Source: a virus. Taken from it: 7,118 nt of DNA. Shown here piece after piece: positions 247-7,118 of this stretch (positions are counted from its first letter, which is position 1; every line of letters begins with the position of its first letter). The position numbers and the translations under genes are program-made. The notes below the pieces were generated by a model. It had not been told where the DNA came from, did not search any database, and saw nothing but the letters and a program-made list of their open reading frames with translations. The stretch is from the UHGV virus genome UHGV-0319381, one strand, 5' to 3'.

Positions 247-371
247 TAAAGAGGGGGTAAAACGTGAGCAGAGCAATGAACAAACTGAGCGATACCTTGC
301 TAAGGAAACTTCATGGTAAGCCAGCGGAGAAAAACACGTTTTATAGTGATGGCGGAAACCTGAGCGTGAAA
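247..371. repeat. Right arm of the perfect inverted repeat (int RBS plus first 36 codons)
   Basis: Exact reverse complement of 1-125. Confidence 0.9.
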
Positions 372-1493
372 TATTTAACATCAGGGAAATTGACCTGGTA
401 TTTCACATACAGGGCCGGAACGGGAAGGGAGACACGACCCGAACGCATTAAGCTGGGAAGTTATCCTGATCTGAGCCTGAAAGCAGCCAGGGAAAAAGCC
501 GCACAGTGTCGCACATGGCTGGCTGAGGGGAAAAATCCACGTCATGAGATGAATTACACCGTACAGGAAGCGTTAAAGCCCGTAACGGTTGGCGATGCGC
601 TCACCTACTGGCTTGAGTCTTACGTAAAGGAAAACCGCGTGGATTATATCGCCCTGAAAAGGCGACTTAATAATCACGTAATACAGCAGATTGGTGCTAT
701 GCCGCTGGATAAATGCGAGCTACGGCACTGGCTGGCCTGTTTTGACCAGGTGGCAAAGCGAACGCCTGTTACTGCCGGATTCGTGCTACAGGCGTGCAAA
801 CAGGCGCTTAAGTTCTGCCGTAGGCGGCGCTATGCAATCAGCAACGTTCTGGACGATCTGAACGTGGCGGACGTTGGGAAAAAACCGGATATAAGCGAAC
901 GTGTCTTAAGTAACAAAGAACTTGGCGAATTATTGCAGGCACTGGACAAAAAAATATTTTCCCCTTACTACGTCGCGTTAATCCGCCTCCTGATTGTCTT
1001 CGGAGCCAGGACGGTAGAACTGAGGCTATCGGAGATCGGGGAGTGGGATTTTACGGAAATGCTATGGACCGTTCCGAAGGAGCACAGCAAAACGAAGGTC
1101 GCAATATTCCGGCCCATACCGGAAGCGATCCTGCCGTTCGTCACGCAGCTGGTGGAGCAGAACAGGCACACGGGCTTATTGCTGGGGGAAGTGAAACAGG
1201 AGGCCAGCGTATCGCAGTATGGAAGATTAGCGCACAGGAGGCTTAATCATCCTCACTGGTCACTGCATGACATCCGGCGCACCTTTACAACCATGCTGAA
1301 CGATTTAGGCGTTGATCCGCATGTCGTGGAGCAGCTTACAGGTCATCAGATGCCAGGAATGCAGCGAGTTTATAATCATTCCCGTTATCTGGATGCTAAA
1401 CGCAATGCGCTGGATATGTGGATGGAGCGGTTAGGGATACTGGCGGGAACACATGAAAACGTAACCACGCTACCAGTAGCCAGAAGAAAATAA
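264..1493 (+). CDS. int: Site-specific tyrosine integrase, P4-type (409 aa)
   Basis: GTG start with GAGGGGG RBS 6 nt upstream. The N-terminus (KLSDT...GGNLSVKYLTSGKLTWYFTYR) aligns by eye with the N-terminal arm-binding region of CP4-57 IntA-like integrases. C-terminal tyrosine-recombinase signatures are present: ARTVELR, HDIRRTF, and Tyr in VYNHSRYLD. Confidence 0.9.
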   Translation: MSRAMNKLSDTLLRKLHGKPAEKNTFYSDGGNLSVKYLTSGKLTWYFTYRAGTGRETRPERIKLGSYPDLSLKAAREKAAQCRTWLAEGKNPRHEMNYTVQEALKPVTVGDALTYWLESYVKENRVDYIALKRRLNNHVIQQIGAMPLDKCELRHWLACFDQVAKRTPVTAGFVLQACKQALKFCRRRRYAISNVLDDLNVADVGKKPDISERVLSNKELGELLQALDKKIFSPYYVALIRLLIVFGARTVELRLSEIGEWDFTEMLWTVPKEHSKTKVAIFRPIPEAILPFVTQLVEQNRHTGLLLGEVKQEASVSQYGRLAHRRLNHPHWSLHDIRRTFTTMLNDLGVDPHVVEQLTGHQMPGMQRVYNHSRYLDAKRNALDMWMERLGILAGTHENVTTLPVARRK

Positions 1494-1867: not shown

Positions 1868-2056
1868 GTGTTAAGCACTGATCGGTTTATACGTGAAAAA
1901 GAATGCGAAAAGCTAACAGGCCTTAGCCGCTCATGCCGCTACCGCCTGGAAAAGGCCGGACAATTCCCATCACGTCGTAAACTTGGCGGTCGTTCCGTTG
2001 GCTGGTCTTTATCCGAGGTTCTGGCCTGGAAGGATAGCTGCAAGGCAGTTCATTAA
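1868..2056 (+). CDS. alpA: AlpA-family transcriptional regulator / excisionase-like DNA-binding protein (62 aa)
   Basis: GTG start with GGGGG RBS 5 nt upstream. The sequence (LTGLSRSCRYRLEKAGQFPSRRKLGGRSVGWSLSEVLAWK) matches the AlpA pattern (TG..R...Y......FP....LG..SVGW...E...W) and sits directly downstream of int, as in P4-like and PICI elements. Confidence 0.85.
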   Translation: MLSTDRFIREKECEKLTGLSRSCRYRLEKAGQFPSRRKLGGRSVGWSLSEVLAWKDSCKAVH

Positions 2057-2556: not shown

Positions 2557-2862
2557 TTATTCTGATTCTTTGGCCTTGCGGCGCTGTAGTTCTTCACGAG
2601 CGATGGCGATAAGTTGCCCGAGTTCTTCCGTAGCTTTAATACCAATTTTTTCCACTTGCGCCAATGCATCGAGAGAAGAAATCAGAGGATTTTCACTGCT
2701 TCCTTCTGCCTGGCGGCGGGCGATCTCCCCGCGCATGGCGGTTACTATGAATCCGGCGTTGCTTTCGCCGTCCAGTTTTACGGATTCCATGCCATCAAAA
2801 GCATCATGTGGGATACGAATTGAAATCTGTTTTGATTTGTCGTTGATAGTGTTTTTTGCCAT
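2557..2862 (-). CDS. Arc/Mnt-like ribbon-helix-helix DNA-binding protein, candidate repressor (101 aa)
   Basis: ATG at 2862 with AGGAGA RBS 6 nt upstream (complement of 2869-2874). The N-terminus KQISIRIPHDAFDGMESVKLDGESNAGFIVTAMRGEI fits the RHH pattern of a beta-strand with R-x-P followed by two helices. It is divergent from the rightward operon, with operators between them. Confidence 0.55.
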   Translation of the reverse strand: MAKNTINDKSKQISIRIPHDAFDGMESVKLDGESNAGFIVTAMRGEIARRQAEGSSENPLISSLDALAQVEKIGIKATEELGQLIAIAREELQRRKAKESE

Positions 2863-2884
2863 GTGCATTCTCCTAAACAAAAGA

Positions 2885-2960
2885 TGTGATTCAGTATACA
2901 CAAAAAAGAATCACAAAAAACACTTGACCTGTGATTCAGTTGAATTTAATTTAAATCACA
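2885..2960. promoter_or_regulatory. Divergent promoter/operator region: two copies of a palindromic operator TGTGATTCAGT-N-(G/A)AATCACA flanking a TTGACC -35 box
   Basis: Operator 1: TGTGATTC 2885-2892 with GAATCACA 2908-2915. Operator 2: TGTGATTC 2930-2937 with AAATCACA 2953-2960. The two are 45 bp apart. TTGACC at 2924-2929, then 17 bp to TAATTT at 2947-2952, so operator 2 overlaps the putative rightward promoter. Confidence 0.45.
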
Positions 2961-3049: not shown

Positions 3050-3247
3050 ATGGCTGGAACACAGCATACCCCACGTCTGGCGCACACACAAACTGCCTTT
3101 GTGTGGCGTTTTCTGGCACTAAGTGCCGGAGAATCTCAAATCATCCACGTAACCGCCTGGACGGAACGCGAAGCGCGTAGCCGTTGCCCGTCCGGTTGTG
3201 TTGCTGTATTCGCCGCCCGTATTCGTCAGGGGTCACATCATGCGTAA
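3050..3247 (+). CDS. Small protein paralog A (65 aa) with FVWRF...TEREAR...ARIRQG..HA motifs; possibly the Icd-like/Ash-like small-protein family of P4-like elements (name uncertain)
   Basis: ATG at 3050 with ACAGGAG RBS and 8-nt spacer. Paralogous to 3534-3704. It is the only part of the long 2114-3247 ORF that looks coding. Confidence 0.55.
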   Translation: MAGTQHTPRLAHTQTAFVWRFLALSAGESQIIHVTAWTEREARSRCPSGCVAVFAARIRQGSHHA

Positions 3248-3533
3248 AAACCGCTTGCAAAAAATTATCACGGGGCTGTATGCTTCCCCCGTCGCCCACA
3301 TGGCGACCGGGTTTGACAGCCTGAATACTACAGCGGACAGCCGCTTACATTCCGATATGCGGTTTTTTTGTGTCCGTAAACCTACCCATACCCGCATTAT
3401 GGCGGGGCGTAACGGGGGAGCCTTTGCGCTCGCTGGTTCCTGTAGTGCCAGTCTGTCAACCCTGTTACGTCTCGCCACCATGTTTGACAGCGTAGTAGCG
3501 AGACTCCTTAATTTCACTACAGGAGCCTTTCAC

Positions 3534-3704
3534 ATGGCTGTATTCGCACGCCCTTATTTTGTCTGGCGCTTTATGCAGTGCCTGACAGACAGCATTGCAA
3601 TATTCACCGTTACCGCTGCCACTGAGCGCGAAGCACGTGCACAGCTGCCGCACGCACATCTGATTTTTGTCGCCCGTATTCGTCAGGGGGTGTGCCATGC
3701 CTGA
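3534..3704 (+). CDS. Small protein paralog B (56 aa) with the same FVWRF...TEREAR...FVARIRQG..HA motifs
   Basis: ATG at 3534 with identical ACAGGAG RBS and 8-nt spacer; shares a 19-bp identical stretch (GCCCGTATTCGTCAGGGG) with paralog A. A possible TTGACA-N17-CTTAAT promoter lies at 3484-3512. An alternative in-frame start at 3240 (154 aa) is not excluded. Confidence 0.55.
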   Translation: MAVFARPYFVWRFMQCLTDSIAIFTVTAATEREARAQLPHAHLIFVARIRQGVCHA

Positions 3705-4023: not shown

Positions 4024-4323
4024 ATGAGAGCGTATTTATCTGGCTTTACTGCCAGCGGTTATGCACACCCCAAAATTATCCCCGGCGCTATTTATCTGGA
4101 TAAGAACGGTAACAGAGTAACGGTAAAAGAACTGATGTTTGACCGTGTGTATTTTATTCGTGATGGCTATTCATTTCATAGTTCGCTGAACGTGGAGATC
4201 TTTATTAGCAGATTCCGGCGGGAAATCCCGCTTTCCAGAAATAACCATGTGTCATGTATGGATGTTGATAAAAAACTACAGGAACTGAAAAACATGATTG
4301 CCGCGTGGAGAGAGCAGAAATGA
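4024..4323 (+). CDS. Hypothetical protein (99 aa) immediately upstream of, and translationally coupled to, the alpha-like gene
   Basis: ATG at 4024 with GGGGA RBS about 9 nt upstream; its TGA stop overlaps the ATG of the next gene (ATGA at 4320-4323). Confidence 0.5.
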   Translation: MRAYLSGFTASGYAHPKIIPGAIYLDKNGNRVTVKELMFDRVYFIRDGYSFHSSLNVEIFISRFRREIPLSRNNHVSCMDVDKKLQELKNMIAAWREQK

Positions 4324-6137
4324 AAAAAGCGCCAAATTTAAAACACCAGCCGCGTGACAAAATGACGGAAGTCATCATTTTTGCGGGTAGTGATGCGTGG
4401 GCACATGCGAAGCAGTGGCAGGAACAGGACGGGCGACTGGCTGGCGATAACGTGCCACCTGTCTGGCTTGGAGAGCAACAACTTGCCGAACTGGACAACC
4501 TGCAAATCGTACCGGACGGACGCTATCGCGTGCGTCTCTACCAGGCGGGGTTATTGCGTCCGGGGCTTGTTAATACCATCGGGCAGAAACTGGCAGCGGC
4601 AGGTGTCAGGGATGCTGATTATTACCCTGAAGGAATGCACAGCCAGAAACGGGAGAACTGGCGCGAATATCTGGAACGTGAGCGGGGAGAGCTGGCGGAA
4701 AAGAAAAAGGTAGTTGAACTGCCTGTAAAGAAAAAAGAGCGGGTAAAAGACGATAACGCTTCATCACTGGCGCTTAACCAGATGGGAGCAAGTCAACGCG
4801 GCGAAGTTCTCCTGGCACATTATGGCGGTGAACTGGCGATTCATGCTGACTCTGACACTGTTCACTATTACAACGGCGTTGTATGGGAGCCAGTACAGGA
4901 TAAAGAATTACAGCGAGCTATGGCGCAGATTTTCATTGATGCGGAGATCAGCTATTCGCAGAACGCCATTAAATCGGCGGTCGATACCATGAAGTTAAGT
5001 TTGCCTGTAATGGGGAATACAGCCCGTAACCTGATTGGATTCAGTAACGGTGTTTTTGATACCCGGACAGGCGATTTTCGGGAGCATAACAAAAACGACT
5101 GGTTGTTAATTGCCAGTGAATTACCTTTCAGCCCACCAGCAGAGGGGGAAACGCTGGCAACACATGCGCCGAATTTCTGGAAGTGGTTACGCCGTTCGGT
5201 GGCTGAGAATGACCGCAAGGCGGATCGCGTACTGGCTGCATTATTCATGGTGCTGGCGAACCGGTACGACTGGCAGTTATTCATTGAGGTAACAGGTCCA
5301 GGGGGAAGTGGTAAAAGCGTGATGGCGGAGATTTGCACCATGCTGGCGGGTAAGGCCAACACGGTATCGGCAAGCATGAAGGCGCTGGAAGATGCCAGGG
5401 AACGCGCGTTAGTGGTTGGCTTTTCGCTGATTATCATGCCGGATATGACCCGTTACGCTGGTGATGGCGCAGGAATTAAGGCCATTACAGGCGGTGACAA
5501 GGTGGCAATCGACCCGAAGCATAAAGCCCCCTACTCAACACGCATTCAGGCGGTAGTGTTGGCGGTGAACAATAACGCCATGTCATTCAGTGACCGCAGC
5601 GGGGGGATTTCACGTCGTCGGGTGATATTCAATTTTTCGGAGGTTGTACCGGAAAACGAACGCGACCCCATGCTGGCAGAAAAAATAGAAGGAGAGCTGG
5701 CGGTTGTGATTCGCCACCTGCTTACTCGTTTTTCTGACCAGGACGCAGCTAAACGCCTGCTGTATGAGCAGCAGAAATCAGAAGAAGCTCTGGTGATAAA
5801 ACGCGAGGGCGATTCGCTGGTGGACTTCTGCGGCTATCTCATGTCGTCGGTAATGTGTGATGGTCTGTTAGTGGGTAATGCCGAAATTATTCCGTTCAGT
5901 CCGCGCAGGTATCTTTATCACGCCTATCTGGCATATATGAGGGCACACGGATTCGGTAAACCTGTAACACTGACGCGCTTCGGTAAAGATATGCCGGGGG
6001 CAATGGCGGAATATGGCAGGGAGTATATGAAACGGAAAACGAAGCACGGTTTGCGTTCAAACGTGACACTGACGGAGGAATCAGAAGACTGGATGCCATC
6101 ATGTGTATCGGTCACTAATGACGACAGCAAAAATTAA
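4320..6137 (+). CDS. P4 alpha-like replication protein: SF3-type helicase / phage-plasmid primase P4-family C-terminal region (605 aa)
   Basis: ATG at 4320 with GGAG RBS; an alternative GTG at 4305 gives 610 aa. Walker A VTGPGGSGKS at about residues 325-333 and Walker B-like hydrophobic-D (LIIMPD). A long C-terminal region is followed immediately by TGTTCACC iterons. The N-terminal roughly 300 aa carry no primase signature I can recognise by eye. Confidence 0.8.
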   Translation: MKKAPNLKHQPRDKMTEVIIFAGSDAWAHAKQWQEQDGRLAGDNVPPVWLGEQQLAELDNLQIVPDGRYRVRLYQAGLLRPGLVNTIGQKLAAAGVRDADYYPEGMHSQKRENWREYLERERGELAEKKKVVELPVKKKERVKDDNASSLALNQMGASQRGEVLLAHYGGELAIHADSDTVHYYNGVVWEPVQDKELQRAMAQIFIDAEISYSQNAIKSAVDTMKLSLPVMGNTARNLIGFSNGVFDTRTGDFREHNKNDWLLIASELPFSPPAEGETLATHAPNFWKWLRRSVAENDRKADRVLAALFMVLANRYDWQLFIEVTGPGGSGKSVMAEICTMLAGKANTVSASMKALEDARERALVVGFSLIIMPDMTRYAGDGAGIKAITGGDKVAIDPKHKAPYSTRIQAVVLAVNNNAMSFSDRSGGISRRRVIFNFSEVVPENERDPMLAEKIEGELAVVIRHLLTRFSDQDAAKRLLYEQQKSEEALVIKREGDSLVDFCGYLMSSVMCDGLLVGNAEIIPFSPRRYLYHAYLAYMRAHGFGKPVTLTRFGKDMPGAMAEYGREYMKRKTKHGLRSNVTLTEESEDWMPSCVSVTNDDSKN

Positions 6138-6151
6138 ACTTATGGAATAAC

Positions 6152-6378
6152 TGTTCACCACTGTTCACCCTGTTATAAATATCTTTTATATCAGTATATT
6201 ATATGGTGAACAGTTATTTGTGAACTGTTCACCAAACTATTCACTGTTCACCTTTTTGATTATTTATTGAGCTTTAAGGGTGAACAGTGGTGAACAGTTG
6301 GTGAATAGTTTTTGTGAAACTGTTCACCCCTTAACATTATGAATAAAAAGGGAAAATCTCAAAAGGTGAACAGGTGAA
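6152..6378. repeat. Iteron array, putative origin of replication (crr/ori-like): about 11 copies of TGTTCACC in both orientations around an AT-rich core
   Basis: Forward TGTTCACC at 6152, 6162, 6226, 6245, 6321. Reverse GGTGAACA at 6205, 6279, 6289, 6365, with degenerate copies at 6300 and 6373. Several copies sit at 10-11 bp phasing. AT-rich stretch at 6171-6204. Confidence 0.75.
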
Positions 6379-6424
6379 GGGTTAAAATGCAAAAATTTTA
6401 TTTTATTGCTGTGAGGTAAAGCCT

Positions 6425-6670
6425 GTGACAACGAAGCACGCAAAAAAACCACAATCTCACGCCCTTGATTTGACAGAACACTGGCTGAGGGTGGCGATAA
6501 AAATCATCGACCGCAACGCGGGAGAAGGGTACGCAAAAGCACATCCCGAACTGATAAGCGCATTCATGACCACGGCGGCAGCAAACTTTGCCACGCTGAC
6601 AGAACGGGAGATTGCCGAAGCGGAACAGGTGACAACCATCAACGTTAAAACCGGAGAGCAGACAGCATGA
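6425..6670 (+). CDS. Hypothetical protein (81 aa)
   Basis: GTG at 6425 with GAGG RBS 8 nt upstream; stop overlaps the start of the following SSB-like ORF (ATGA at 6667-6670). No family recognised. Confidence 0.4.
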   Translation: MTTKHAKKPQSHALDLTEHWLRVAIKIIDRNAGEGYAKAHPELISAFMTTAAANFATLTEREIAEAEQVTTINVKTGEQTA

Positions 6671-7118
6671 CAGCACAGATAGCGGCTTACGGGCGGCTGG
6701 TGGCTGACCCGCAGTTAAAGACCACCAGCAAAGGGACACAAATGGCGATGGCGAGTATGGCGGTTCCCCTGCCGTGCAGCCAGGCAGATGACGGAACGGC
6801 GACGATGTGGTTATCTGTCCTGGCGTTTGGCAGACAGGCCGACGCACTGGCAAAACACCACAAAGGCGAACTGGTGAGCGTGGCGGGTAACATGCAGGTG
6901 AGCCAGTGGACAGGCCAGAACGGGGAAACGCGGCAGGGCTGGCAGGTTATTGCAGACAGCGTAATCAGTTGCTTAAAACGGTATGTTATCCCCGTACGGA
7001 TCAACATTTCCCGCCTGTTGTTTTGCCCTGTTCAGCGCGTCAGTAGCCTGGCCCTGTTGAGCTTTTTTGCCGCCCGGTCGCGCCGTTCGCGCACTGATTA
7101 CGCTGTCTGCAATAACCT
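6667..7118 (+). CDS. SSB-like OB-fold single-stranded DNA-binding protein, 3'-partial (runs off the window)
   Basis: ATG at 6667 with GGAG RBS. IAAYGRLVADPQLKTTSKGTQMAMASMAV...WLSVLAFGRQADALAKHHKGELVSVAGNMQVSQWTGQNGETRQGWQVIADSV aligns by eye with the bacterial SSB OB-fold pattern (VGRLG.DPE.R.T..G...A.F..A...W....A.G..AE.A..YL.KGS.V...G.L....W.D..G..R....V.A). No stop before the window end; the region after the OB fold is atypical (hydrophobic/basic rather than Gly-rich acidic tail). Confidence 0.55.
   Translation, partial: MTAQIAAYGRLVADPQLKTTSKGTQMAMASMAVPLPCSQADDGTATMWLSVLAFGRQADALAKHHKGELVSVAGNMQVSQWTGQNGETRQGWQVIADSVISCLKRYVIPVRINISRLLFCPVQRVSSLALLSFFAARSRRSRTDYAVCNN

What the first reader, a model, noticed from the sequence alone, without database searches (positions are those of the whole stretch)
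4320..6137. Alpha-like replication protein shorter than P4 alpha, with an N-terminal region lacking an obvious primase signature
The 605-aa protein has a clear Walker A/B helicase core and a long C-terminal region, but the Walker A lies near residue 330 and the preceding roughly 300 aa show no primase motif I can identify by eye. P4 alpha is, from memory, about 777 aa with an N-terminal primase. This may be a helicase/initiator that depends on host or helper primase, or it may carry a divergent primase domain.
Basis: partly seen in the sequence, partly recalled or inferred. Interest (0 to 1): 0.35.

Follow-up and report, generated by a model that had tools for sequence, protein, structure and literature searches.

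The report
Primase-less P4-alpha-like satellite replication helicase
This gene is the replication initiator-helicase of an E. coli phage satellite (a capsid-forming PICI): it keeps the helicase and origin-binding parts of phage P4's alpha protein, but alpha's primase is replaced by a small, uncharacterised domain that is not a recognisable primase, so the element most likely borrows the host's primase.

Summary
ORF 4320-6137 (+) encodes a 605-aa protein with Walker A at residues 326-333. Residues 113-595 align with P4 alpha 290-771 at 48% identity, and the C-terminus matches the solved alpha origin-binding domain (1KA8, E=1e-24). Nine exact TGTTCACC iterons, identical to the P4 ori type-1 repeat, lie just 3' of the gene.

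Alpha's 290-aa Zn-ribbon/Toprim primase is absent. In its place is a ~130-aa alpha/beta "N-module" (AF2 pLDDT 95) followed by a disordered Lys-rich linker. The N-module has no cysteines, no Pfam or PDB sequence match, no significant Foldseek match in the PDB, and 0.3% HHalign probability against real P4-type Toprim domains.

The module is a narrow family (134 of 1.84 billion clusters) but occurs in 34% of complete E. coli genomes. It is fused to four helicase classes (P4-type SF3, DUF927, RepA/AAA_25, VapE), in the position where a Toprim primase otherwise sits. A clean recombination breakpoint falls in the linker.

The EcCICFT073 homologue has the same architecture and is published to replicate a plasmid in E. 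coli without a helper phage, so host DnaG priming is the best reading. The N-module's role, probably a non-catalytic adaptor, is inferred. The annotation "DNA primase" is probably a misnomer.

The parts
4024..4323 (+). DUF4222 gene. Its stop overlaps the rep start by 4 nt. It is co-inherited with the N-module as one block.
   Evidence: Pfam DUF4222 E=7e-17. ATGA overlap. The block is 99-100% identical in DNA to an island that carries a different helicase. The same neighbour is seen with P4-type, DUF927 and RepA-type reps in E. coli, but it is absent in the Klebsiella-type and Pasteurella satellites.
4320..6137 (+). Replication initiator-helicase ('Pri-Rep'), 605 aa.
   Evidence: Full-length AF2 model pLDDT 83.8. 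Best PDB folds are the SaPI5 primase-helicase 7OLA (E=2e-16), ASFV PrimPol and poxvirus D5/E5.
4320..4706 (+). N-module (residues 1-129): a compact alpha/beta domain of unknown function that stands where P4 alpha has its primase.
   Evidence: No Pfam hit. PHROG 2850, 'unknown function'. AF2 pLDDT 95.1, pTM 0.88. No significant PDB fold match; best TM 0.44. One significant viral match, to an uncharacterised 112-aa phage protein. 134 representative clusters only. No Cys.
4707..4787 (+). Disordered Lys-rich linker (residues ~130-156). The module-exchange breakpoint lies at about nt 4740.
   Evidence: pLDDT below 50 for residues 130-150. DNA identity to the DUF927 island drops from ~100% to none at alignment column ~721, which is window ~4740. 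Protein identity ends at residue ~141.
4788..5255 (+). D5_N domain (residues 157-312).
   Evidence: Pfam D5_N E=1.3e-13 on 162-291. Homologous to alpha 336-467.
5256..5669 (+). SF3 helicase ATPase core (residues 313-450). Walker A is at nt 5295-5318 and Walker B at nt 5427-5444.
   Evidence: Pfam DUF5906 E=8e-11 and PPV_E1_C. Motif positions. 7OLA alignment over 237-440.
5808..6098 (+). C-terminal winged-helix origin-binding domain (residues 497-593).
   Evidence: 1KA8 (P4 alpha origin-binding domain) E=1e-24. Pfam Pox_D5 E=6.6e-13.
6149..6384 (.). Replication origin: 9 exact and 1 near TGTTCACC iterons in both orientations, flanking AT-rich stretches (~6170-6203 and ~6253-6277).
   Evidence: 10 matches in the window against 0.28 expected, 0 of 200 shuffles reaching 10. 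Identical to the annotated P4 ori/crr type-1 repeat. The position matches the published PICI ori layout (PMC6092414).
6425..6670 (+). Small conserved gene of unknown function between ori and ssb.
   Evidence: phrog_1231 E=1.4e-49. The same position is occupied in L001, L005, L020 and L021.
6667..6969 (+). Island-encoded SSB, OB-fold part only. Its 3' end is inverted in this window.
   Evidence: Pfam SSB E=5e-16. The C-terminal tail is encoded on the minus strand at 6973-7116.
264..1493 (+). Tyrosine integrase of the island.
   Evidence: Pfam Phage_integrase and Arm-DNA-bind_3.
1868..2056 (+). AlpA-family regulator, the PICI inducer in published systems.
   Evidence: Pfam Phage_AlpA E=5e-18. 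PMC6092414.

Best explanation
The ORF is the replication initiator-helicase (the 'Pri-Rep') of a capsid-forming PICI-type phage satellite of E. coli. It is a P4-alpha-type protein in which alpha's Zn-ribbon/Toprim primase (290 aa) has been replaced by a ~130-aa alpha/beta N-module on a flexible Lys-rich tether. Proposed mechanism: the C-terminal winged-helix domain binds the TGTTCACC iterons of the origin immediately 3' of the gene. The D5_N/SF3 ATPase body then self-assembles as a hexameric helicase at the AT-rich core and unwinds it. Because the protein has no recognisable primase, RNA primers are made by the host primase DnaG, probably with help from the island's own SSB. The N-module is most likely a non-catalytic interaction or adaptor domain common to all replication cassettes of these satellites. 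What is shown here: the domain architecture, homology to alpha from residue ~113 onward, iteron identity with P4, absence of any detectable primase fold or motif, the modular fusion of the N-module to four helicase classes, and the breakpoint in the linker. What is shown in the literature for a same-architecture homologue: helper-independent replication in E. coli. What is inferred: DnaG dependence, the hexameric self-loading mechanism, and the adaptor role of the N-module.
For: BLASTP against P4 alpha gives 48% identity over 113-595 versus 290-771. Alpha has Zn_Ribbon_Prim and Toprim_3, and the window protein has neither. 1KA8 matches at E=1e-24. The iterons equal the P4 type-1 repeats and are enriched 10 versus 0.28 expected. 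Full-length fold matches are D5-type self-loading SF3 helicases. For the N-module: 0 Cys; no primase among 134 representative hits out of 1.84e9; no PDB hit with a profile; HHalign against a P4-type Toprim profile gives 0.3% probability; Foldseek against the PDB gives nothing at E<0.07. The N-module is fused to D5_N/SF3, DUF927, AAA_25 and VapE bodies, and real Zn-ribbon/Toprim domains are fused to the same body types elsewhere. N-module DNA that is 98-100% identical is joined to a different helicase and a different ori, with the breakpoint in the disordered linker. EcCICFT073 Pri-Rep has the same architecture at 48% identity, and its rep-ori segment replicates a plasmid in DH5alpha without phage (PMC6092414). 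Two small complete elements with this module have no other annotated replication gene and no primase. Near-identical islands carry the full cf-PICI packaging module.
Against: No biochemistry exists for this protein. The N-module occupies exactly the position of a primase domain. It has a few well-conserved charged positions (E17 96%, D/E104 73%, E112 85%, R122 92%) and invariant glycines after strands 1 and 3, so a small catalytic or ligand-binding site is not excluded. How DnaG would be brought to a non-DnaB helicase is unknown. No AlphaFold-DB search of cellular proteins was possible. The replication experiment in PMC6092414 was done on a 48%-identical homologue, not on this allele.
Confidence: 0.7

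Rival explanations
1. The N-module is a new, minimal primase: a catalytic domain unrelated in sequence to Toprim or AEP primases that makes the primers itself. In that case 'DNA primase' would be a correct annotation.
For: It is positionally equivalent to the Zn-ribbon/Toprim primase in four parallel helicase architectures. It has conserved E17, D/E104, E112 and R122, and Gly loops after beta1 and beta3. It is the only candidate in elements that otherwise lack a primase.
Against: It is only ~125 aa, with no Cys or His cluster for template-recognition zinc binding. No position is an invariant acidic residue across the family; the invariant residues are A4, G23, A26 and L55. E17 sits at the N-terminal start of strand 1, whereas alpha/beta enzymes normally place catalytic residues at strand C-termini. 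There is no similarity to any known primase by HMM, HHalign or Foldseek. From my own knowledge, known primases are considerably larger.
Confidence: 0.08
2. The N-module is a degenerate relic of the Toprim primase domain, an inactivated primase retained for a structural or DNA-binding role in the way metazoan Twinkle retains one. On this reading it is homologous to alpha's primase but non-catalytic.
For: It has a three-layer alpha/beta fold with 4-5 strands. Several Toprim/DnaG models appear among weak Foldseek hits (TM 0.30-0.39). There is a superficial local resemblance between 'VIIFAGSDAWAHA' and alpha's 'LWIAEGYATALTV', and it sits in the same position in the protein.
Against: HHalign probability is 0.3%, and the aligned segment is not the Toprim region. 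All Toprim fold hits are non-significant (E>=0.18), and a resolvase domain scores better. The EGYATA, DxD and DWND motifs, which are clear in real members, have no counterpart in register. The conserved Glu lies before the strand, not after it.
Confidence: 0.12
3. The N-module has nothing to do with priming. It is a regulatory or partner-binding domain, for example binding the co-inherited DUF4222 protein, the island SSB or a helper-phage protein, and it controls when or where the helicase loads.
For: DUF4222 and the N-module are inherited as one 99-100% identical block independent of helicase and ori, and the two genes overlap. The module is restricted to satellite-like elements.
Against: DUF4222 is missing upstream in the Klebsiella-type and Pasteurella elements that carry the module. 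The homologous rep-ori works in DH5alpha without a helper phage. That construct is described as rep plus ori, so whether DUF4222 was included is not known. This reading also does not explain why the module consistently takes the primase slot.
Confidence: 0.2

Closest known systems
Phage P4 alpha protein (primase-helicase-origin binding; NP_042036, 777 aa)
   Same: D5_N, SF3 ATPase and C-terminal winged-helix origin-binding domain, 48% identical over ~480 aa. The solved origin-binding domain 1KA8 matches at E=1e-24. The iteron TGTTCACC is identical.
   Different: Alpha's N-terminal 290 aa (Zn-ribbon 30-66, Toprim 210-299 with EGYATA) are absent and replaced by an unrelated ~130-aa N-module plus linker. 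The ori lies directly 3' of the gene as a single iteron cluster. P4 instead has a separate ori and crr.
EcCICFT073 Pri-Rep (Gram-negative PICI replication protein; WP_000761835, 584 aa)
   Same: Same four-part architecture, including the N-module (~70% identical across that part), 48% identical overall. Same gene neighbourhood: DUF4222-rep-ori-hyp-SSB-PerC. Experimentally it is a functional, helper-independent replicon (PMC6092414).
   Different: The C-terminal DNA-binding domain has diverged and the iterons differ (CTGTCTACC). EcCICFT073 is a classical PICI, not a capsid-forming one.
cf-PICI of the EDL933 lineage (island in ATCC 43894, presumably EcCIEDL933)
   Same: Same left arm. Several island proteins have accessions identical to the 97%-similar SHP24 island, including SSB, PerC and two packaging-module proteins. 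Its rep carries the N-module and is preceded by DUF4222.
   Different: Its helicase body is DUF927 with a Cch-type HTH rather than P4-type SF3, and it integrates at a different site (near roxA/pepT rather than tqsA).
SaPI5 PriRep / poxvirus D5 (E5) / ASFV C962R primase-helicases
   Same: The D5_N and SF3 hexameric self-loading helicase fold (Foldseek E down to 2e-16).
   Different: Those proteins carry a real AEP-type primase at the N-terminus. This one carries none.
SV40 large T antigen / papillomavirus E1 (functional analogy, from my own knowledge)
   Same: SF3 initiator-helicases with no primase of their own that recruit the host primase.
   Different: Eukaryotic viruses with an N-terminal rather than C-terminal origin-binding domain. 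No homology outside the ATPase core.

Membership tests
P4-alpha-type primase-helicase (TIGR01613 'phage/plasmid primase, P4 family') | D5_N plus SF3 ATPase core with Walker A/B | tested here: met
   Pfam D5_N and DUF5906. GPGGSGKS at 326-333 and LIIMPD at 370-375. 48% identity to alpha.
P4-alpha-type primase-helicase (TIGR01613 'phage/plasmid primase, P4 family') | C-terminal winged-helix origin-binding domain that recognises TGTTCACC iterons | tested here: met
   1KA8 E=1e-24. Nine exact iterons directly 3' of the gene, 10 versus 0.28 expected. Binding itself was not tested.
P4-alpha-type primase-helicase (TIGR01613 'phage/plasmid primase, P4 family') | N-terminal primase: Zn-ribbon (CxxC...CxxC) | tested here: not met
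   No Zn_Ribbon_Prim hit. Zero cysteines in residues 1-160. The positive controls, alpha and a Toprim-DUF927 protein, score 1.9e-18 and 2.7e-17.
P4-alpha-type primase-helicase (TIGR01613 'phage/plasmid primase, P4 family') | N-terminal primase: Toprim domain with EGYATA, DxD and DWND motifs | tested here: not met
   No Toprim Pfam hit at E<=1. The motifs are clear in 11 real members. HHalign probability 0.3%. Foldseek is non-significant.
P4-alpha-type primase-helicase (TIGR01613 'phage/plasmid primase, P4 family') | Score above NCBIfam's curated cut-off for TIGR01613 | tested here: not met
   97.4 bits against a cut-off of 108.7. The matched part is the helicase region 239-544.
PICI / cf-PICI Pri-Rep replication module | Location in a unidirectional int-alpA-...-rep island, with ori (iterons flanking an AT-rich core) immediately 3' of rep | tested here: met
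   The layout is as described in PMC6092414.
PICI / cf-PICI Pri-Rep replication module | Full-length homology to an experimentally characterised PICI Pri-Rep | tested here: met
   48% identity over 596 aa to EcCICFT073 Pri-Rep.
PICI / cf-PICI Pri-Rep replication module | cf-PICI packaging module (capsid, protease, portal, connectors, HNH, TerS, TerL; no tail or lysis genes) downstream | tested here: inconclusive
   The window ends within ssb. The 97%-identical island in strain SHP24 has the complete module, but a 98.5%-identical rep also sits in a 10.8-kb element with a different morphogenesis set.
PICI / cf-PICI Pri-Rep replication module | Helper-induced excision and replication, and rep-ori autonomous replication | not testable with these tools
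   Shown only for EcCICFT073 (PMC6092414) and EcCIEDL933 (bioRxiv 2022.09.08.507074).
DnaG/Toprim-type primases | Conserved Glu at the end of strand 1 and DxD at the end of strand 3 in a Toprim fold | tested here: not met
   The strand-1 and strand-3 ends are invariant Gly (G23, G77). The conserved Glu (E17) precedes strand 1. No significant fold or profile match.
Archaeo-eukaryotic primases (AEP / Prim-Pol) | AEP catalytic fold with a DxD...H/D triad | tested here: not met
   No Pfam, NCBIfam or PDB-profile hit. No AEP among Foldseek hits for the N-module.
D5-like SF3 self-loading helicases | D5_N collar plus SF3 AAA+ fold | tested here: met
   Foldseek matches to 7OLA, 8IQI, 8HWG and 8XJ8 with E from 2e-16 to 7e-12.

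The most novel reading that the evidence does not exclude
The N-module is a portable 'priming adaptor'. On this reading it is a previously unrecognised domain that lets four unrelated non-DnaB replicative helicases (P4-type SF3, DUF927, RepA/AAA_25, VapE) of phage satellites capture the host DnaG primase or replisome. Less likely, it is itself a new minimal primase. Either way it would be a functional replacement for a fused Toprim primase, exchanged between replicons as a cassette together with the upstream genes.
Probability: 0.3. Interest if true: 0.7.

Novelty: new variant of a known kind. Interest (0 to 1): 0.45.

Why it matters
The gene is annotated and discussed as a "DNA primase" or "Pri-Rep" in E. 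coli PICIs and cf-PICIs, and the N-module is present in about a third of complete E. coli genomes. Showing that the primase part is missing changes how these satellites are thought to replicate. They would depend on host DnaG, unlike P4, whose own primase makes it DnaG-independent (from my own knowledge). It also raises a concrete, testable question: how is a bacterial primase recruited to non-DnaB helicases? The small, confidently folded, uncharacterised N-module is the obvious candidate. It is shared by four helicase classes and swapped by recombination in a disordered linker. The finding also corrects an annotation that propagates through thousands of genomes.

Tried and rejected
1. Degenerate Toprim idea. 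I raised it by eye from 'VIIFAGSDAWAHA' against alpha's 'LWIAEGYATALTV'. I built an 11-member alignment of real P4-type Zn-ribbon/Toprim domains. HHalign gave 0.3% probability on a non-Toprim segment, and Foldseek gave only non-significant Toprim hits. It is kept only as a low-probability rival.

2. PDB sequence search with the N-module profile at E<=10 returned only noise: Cwp8 and TAL-effector repeats.

3. The third large homologue search, using the diverse alignment A2, returned only short or partial proteins and added nothing new.

4. The search for related loci with A2 failed because there was no conserved 7-10-residue stretch. With A1 on genome contigs it returned only two loci, Shigella flexneri and E. 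albertii, so I took taxonomic spread from the phage, plasmid and E. coli collections instead.

5. DUF4222 as an obligate partner of the N-module was rejected, because it is absent upstream in L003 and L009.

6. Literature searches for a prior report of primase-less PICI Rep proteins or of DnaG dependence found nothing. The PICI, cf-PICI and SatelliteFinder papers I checked name the gene 'primase' or 'Pri-Rep', or do not discuss it, and none dissects its domains.

7. The promoter/terminator scan around the gene showed nothing above shuffles.
Full report
**1. Observation**

The window has a 1,818-nt ORF at 4320-6137 on the + strand, encoding 605 aa. An upstream in-frame GTG at 4305 is unlikely to be the start. 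RefSeq annotates the ATG start in a 97%-identical island. The N-terminal peptide MK-x-AP-x-x-K is conserved from Met1 across the family. The ATG also overlaps the stop of the upstream gene as ATGA.

Walker A (GPGGSGKS) is at residues 326-333 and Walker B (LIIMPD) at 370-375.

**2. What the protein is**

Pfam finds D5_N (162-291), the SF3-helicase model DUF5906 (325-433) and Pox_D5 (496-591). It finds nothing on residues 1-160, even at E<=1. NCBIfam's 'phage/plasmid primase, P4 family' model matches only the helicase part (239-544) and falls below its curated cut-off, 97.4 against 108.7 bits.

Against solved structures, residues 497-593 match the origin-binding domain of P4 alpha (1KA8, E=1e-24), and 237-440 match the SaPI5 primase-helicase.

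I fetched the P4 genome and compared directly. Window residues 113-595 align with alpha 290-771 at 48% identity (E=4e-163), and nothing before residue 113 aligns. As a positive control, alpha itself shows Zn_Ribbon_Prim (30-66, E=1.9e-18) and Toprim_3 (210-299, E=1.2e-12).

The protein is therefore alpha minus its primase, plus about 130 different residues.

A full-length AlphaFold model (pLDDT 83.8) gives this layout:
- N-domain, 1-131
- disordered Lys-rich linker, 130-150 (pLDDT below 50)
- D5_N, about 157-312
- ATPase core, 321-440
- helical connector
- winged-helix domain, 507-590

Its best PDB neighbours are D5-type self-loading SF3 helicases: SaPI5 PriRep 7OLA at E=2e-16, ASFV C962R, and mpox E5/vaccinia D5.

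**3. The origin**

Directly 3' of the stop codon, at 6149-6384, GC drops to 0.38. The sequence there is packed with GGTGAACAGT/ACTGTTCACC repeats in both orientations around AT-rich stretches.

The 8-mer core TGTTCACC is identical to the annotated type-1 repeat of the P4 ori and crr. The window holds 10 exact copies against 0.28 expected, and none of 200 shuffles reaches 10. Nine copies lie within 221 bp.

This is the layout published for Gram-negative PICI origins: iteron sets flanking an AT-rich core, immediately 3' of rep (PMC6092414). It also agrees with the conserved alpha-type DNA-binding domain.

**4. Context**

The window carries, in order:
- int (264-1493)
- alpA (1868-2056)
- a YlcI/YnfO gene on the minus strand
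- icd-like ORFs
- a phrog_15327 gene
- DUF4222 (4024-4323)
- the rep gene and ori
- a small conserved gene (6425-6670)
- ssb (from 6667)

In E. coli SHP24 a 97%-identical island continues with PerC, capsid, protease, portal, head closure, connector, HNH, TerS and TerL, and is inserted in tqsA. That is the gene set of a capsid-forming PICI (PMC10085698; bioRxiv 2022.09.08.507074).

The cf-PICI in ATCC 43894 (EDL933 lineage) shares several identical protein accessions with the SHP24 island, including SSB, PerC and two packaging-module proteins, but has a different rep body.

**5. The N-terminal module**

Homologues of residues 1-140 are numerous but closely related. An exhaustive HMM search of 1.84 billion representative proteins with a 20-sequence profile found only 134 clusters at E<=1e-3, and none was a Toprim or AEP primase.

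The full-length members fall into four architectures, all with the module at the extreme N-terminus:
- D5_N/DUF5906/Pox_D5
- DUF927
- AAA_25 (RepA-like)
- VapE

Genuine P4-type Zn-ribbon/Toprim domains are fused to the same body types in other enterobacterial elements: 'TOPRIM and DUF927', VapE and the P4 family. The module is therefore a positional substitute for the primase.

A 26-sequence alignment reaching down to 22% identity shows invariant A4, G23, A26 and L55, and nearly invariant P5, P47, G77, A92 and R122. The best-conserved acidic positions are E17 (96%), E112 (85%) and D/E104 (73%). No Cys or His column is conserved, and this protein has no Cys at all in residues 1-160.

With that alignment AlphaFold2 gives a very confident model (pLDDT 95.1, pTM 0.88) of a compact alternating beta/alpha domain.

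Foldseek against the PDB returns nothing significant. The best E-value is 0.07. The best TM-score is 0.44, to the gamma-delta resolvase catalytic domain. RecR, a Toprim protein, reaches TM 0.32. Against predicted viral structures there is one significant hit, an uncharacterised 112-aa protein of an uncultured phage (E=1.6e-4, TM 0.59/0.68). Toprim primase models appear only at E>=0.18.

A PDB sequence search with the profile gave only noise.

Because a local motif looked Toprim-like by eye, I built an alignment of 11 real P4-type primase domains, in which the CPxCGG zinc ribbon, EGYATA, ADND and DWND motifs are obvious. HHalign between the two profiles gave 0.3% probability on an irrelevant segment.

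The conclusion is that the N-module is not a detectable member of any known primase family. It is a distinct, previously uncharacterised domain. PHROGs files it under 'unknown function'.

**6. Modular exchange**

The N-module DNA (381 nt) is found in 1,854 of 5,426 complete E. coli genomes, with up to six copies per genome. It is annotated under 'DNA primase family protein', 'DUF927 domain-containing protein' or 'helicase RepA family protein'.

In strain C 237-04, the region from the DUF4222 gene through codon ~141 of rep is 99-100% identical to the window. Similarity then stops abruptly at about window nt 4740. The rest of that gene is a DUF927 helicase followed by an ori with different iterons, TAACCCGCA. 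The breakpoint falls in the linker that AlphaFold predicts to be disordered.

So [DUF4222 + N-module] and [helicase body + ori] are separate recombining units. The helicase-ori cassette sets replicon specificity, while the N-module is common to all cassettes. That argues its function is independent of helicase type and of origin sequence.

DUF4222 is not an obligate partner. It is absent upstream in a Klebsiella-type satellite and in Pasteurella Pmp7.

**7. How it most likely works**

Shown or strongly supported: the protein is an alpha-type initiator-helicase with its cognate iteron origin next to it, and it has no recognisable primase.

Taken from the literature: EcCICFT073 Pri-Rep has the same four-part architecture (48% identity overall, about 70% in the N-module, no primase domain). 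Together with its ori it maintains a temperature-sensitive plasmid in DH5alpha with no helper phage. Deleting rep abolishes colony formation, and deleting ori significantly reduces it (PMC6092414).

From established knowledge, the lambdoid helpers lambda and phi80 (listed as EcCICFT073 helpers) encode no primase, and neither does HK106, the EcCIEDL933 helper, so the only canonical primase available is host DnaG.

Inferred: the C-terminal domain binds the iterons, the SF3 body self-loads as a hexamer at the AT-rich core, DnaG primes, and the N-module on its flexible tether acts as a non-catalytic adaptor. Candidate partners are DnaG, SSB (the islands carry their own SSB with a ...DPYGD(N/G)IPF tail) or another replisome component.

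I put about 0.7 on 'primase-less initiator-helicase that relies on host priming', and only about 0.3 on the specific adaptor-to-priming role.

**8. Rivals**

- A new minimal primase (~0.08). It fits the position and a few conserved charges. It is contradicted by the module's size, the lack of a zinc site, the lack of an invariant acidic cluster, and every similarity test.
- A degenerate Toprim relic (~0.12). This is compatible with a non-catalytic role but is unsupported by HHalign and Foldseek.
- A regulatory or partner-binding domain unrelated to priming (~0.2).

**9. Comparison and novelty**

The protein works like P4 alpha in origin recognition and unwinding. It meets alpha's helicase and origin-binding criteria but fails both primase criteria, so it should not be filed as a 'P4-family primase'. 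It is a bona fide member of the PICI/cf-PICI Pri-Rep group.

The gene family is well known and very common. What appears to be unreported in the searchable literature is that the 'Pri' part is missing and is replaced by a novel, shuffled N-terminal domain.

I rate it a new variant of a known kind with moderate interest. It has a clear experimental route: primase assay, dnaG(ts) dependence, N-module deletion and interaction mapping.

Noticed in passing
window 6946-7116: The ssb gene is broken. The OB-fold part runs forward (6667-6969), but the C-terminal tail 'VIADSVISARTARP...DPYGDNIPF*' is encoded on the minus strand at 6973-7116. The 24-nt 'VIADSVIS' segment is present in both orientations (6946-6969 on + and 7093-7116 on -). 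This is either a local inversion between inverted repeats or a contig-end assembly artefact. Similarity to intact islands stops at 6969.
   Followed up: partly
window ~3050-3247 and ~3530-3704 (+): Two tandem icd-like (host cell-division inhibitor) reading frames sharing the pattern ...FVWRF...TEREAR...ARIRQG. They are hidden at the ends of long, probably artefactual ORFs. RefSeq annotates up to three Icd-like genes at this position in the related island.
   Followed up: no
window 2557-2901 (-): A YlcI/YnfO-family gene (NCBIfam E=4e-18) is the only convincing minus-strand gene in an otherwise unidirectional island. It is conserved at the same place in EcCICFT073 and other islands.
   Followed up: no
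L008 (NZ_CP148328.1, whole 10,790-bp circular record): A record deposited as an E. coli plasmid is really a PICI-like element: int, alpA, YlcI, icd, DUF4222, a rep whose N-module is 98.5% identical to the window's, and a protease/capsid fusion. It may be an excised, replicating satellite episome.
   Followed up: partly
L012, L013, L014, L017 (enterobacterial plasmid records): Genuine P4-type Zn-ribbon/Toprim primase domains occur fused to DUF927 and VapE helicase bodies. These architectures run parallel to the N-module fusions, suggesting the N-terminal slot of these helicases is a general exchange point.
   Followed up: partly
BFVD entry A0A6J5LID1 (uncultured Caudovirales phage): A standalone 112-aa uncharacterised phage protein is the only significant structural neighbour of the N-module (E=1.6e-4, TM 0.59/0.68, 17% identity). 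This suggests the domain also exists as a separate gene.
   Followed up: no
window 5564-5571 (-): One additional exact TGTTCACC iteron lies inside the rep coding region, about 580 nt upstream of the ori cluster. It could be chance or an autoregulatory site.
   Followed up: no
L005 10010-10240 and L020 5640-5960: Each rep allele has its own iteron family directly 3' of the gene: CTGTCTACC in EcCICFT073 and TAACCCGCA in the DUF927 island. This is consistent with co-evolving helicase/DNA-binding domain and ori cassettes.
   Followed up: partly
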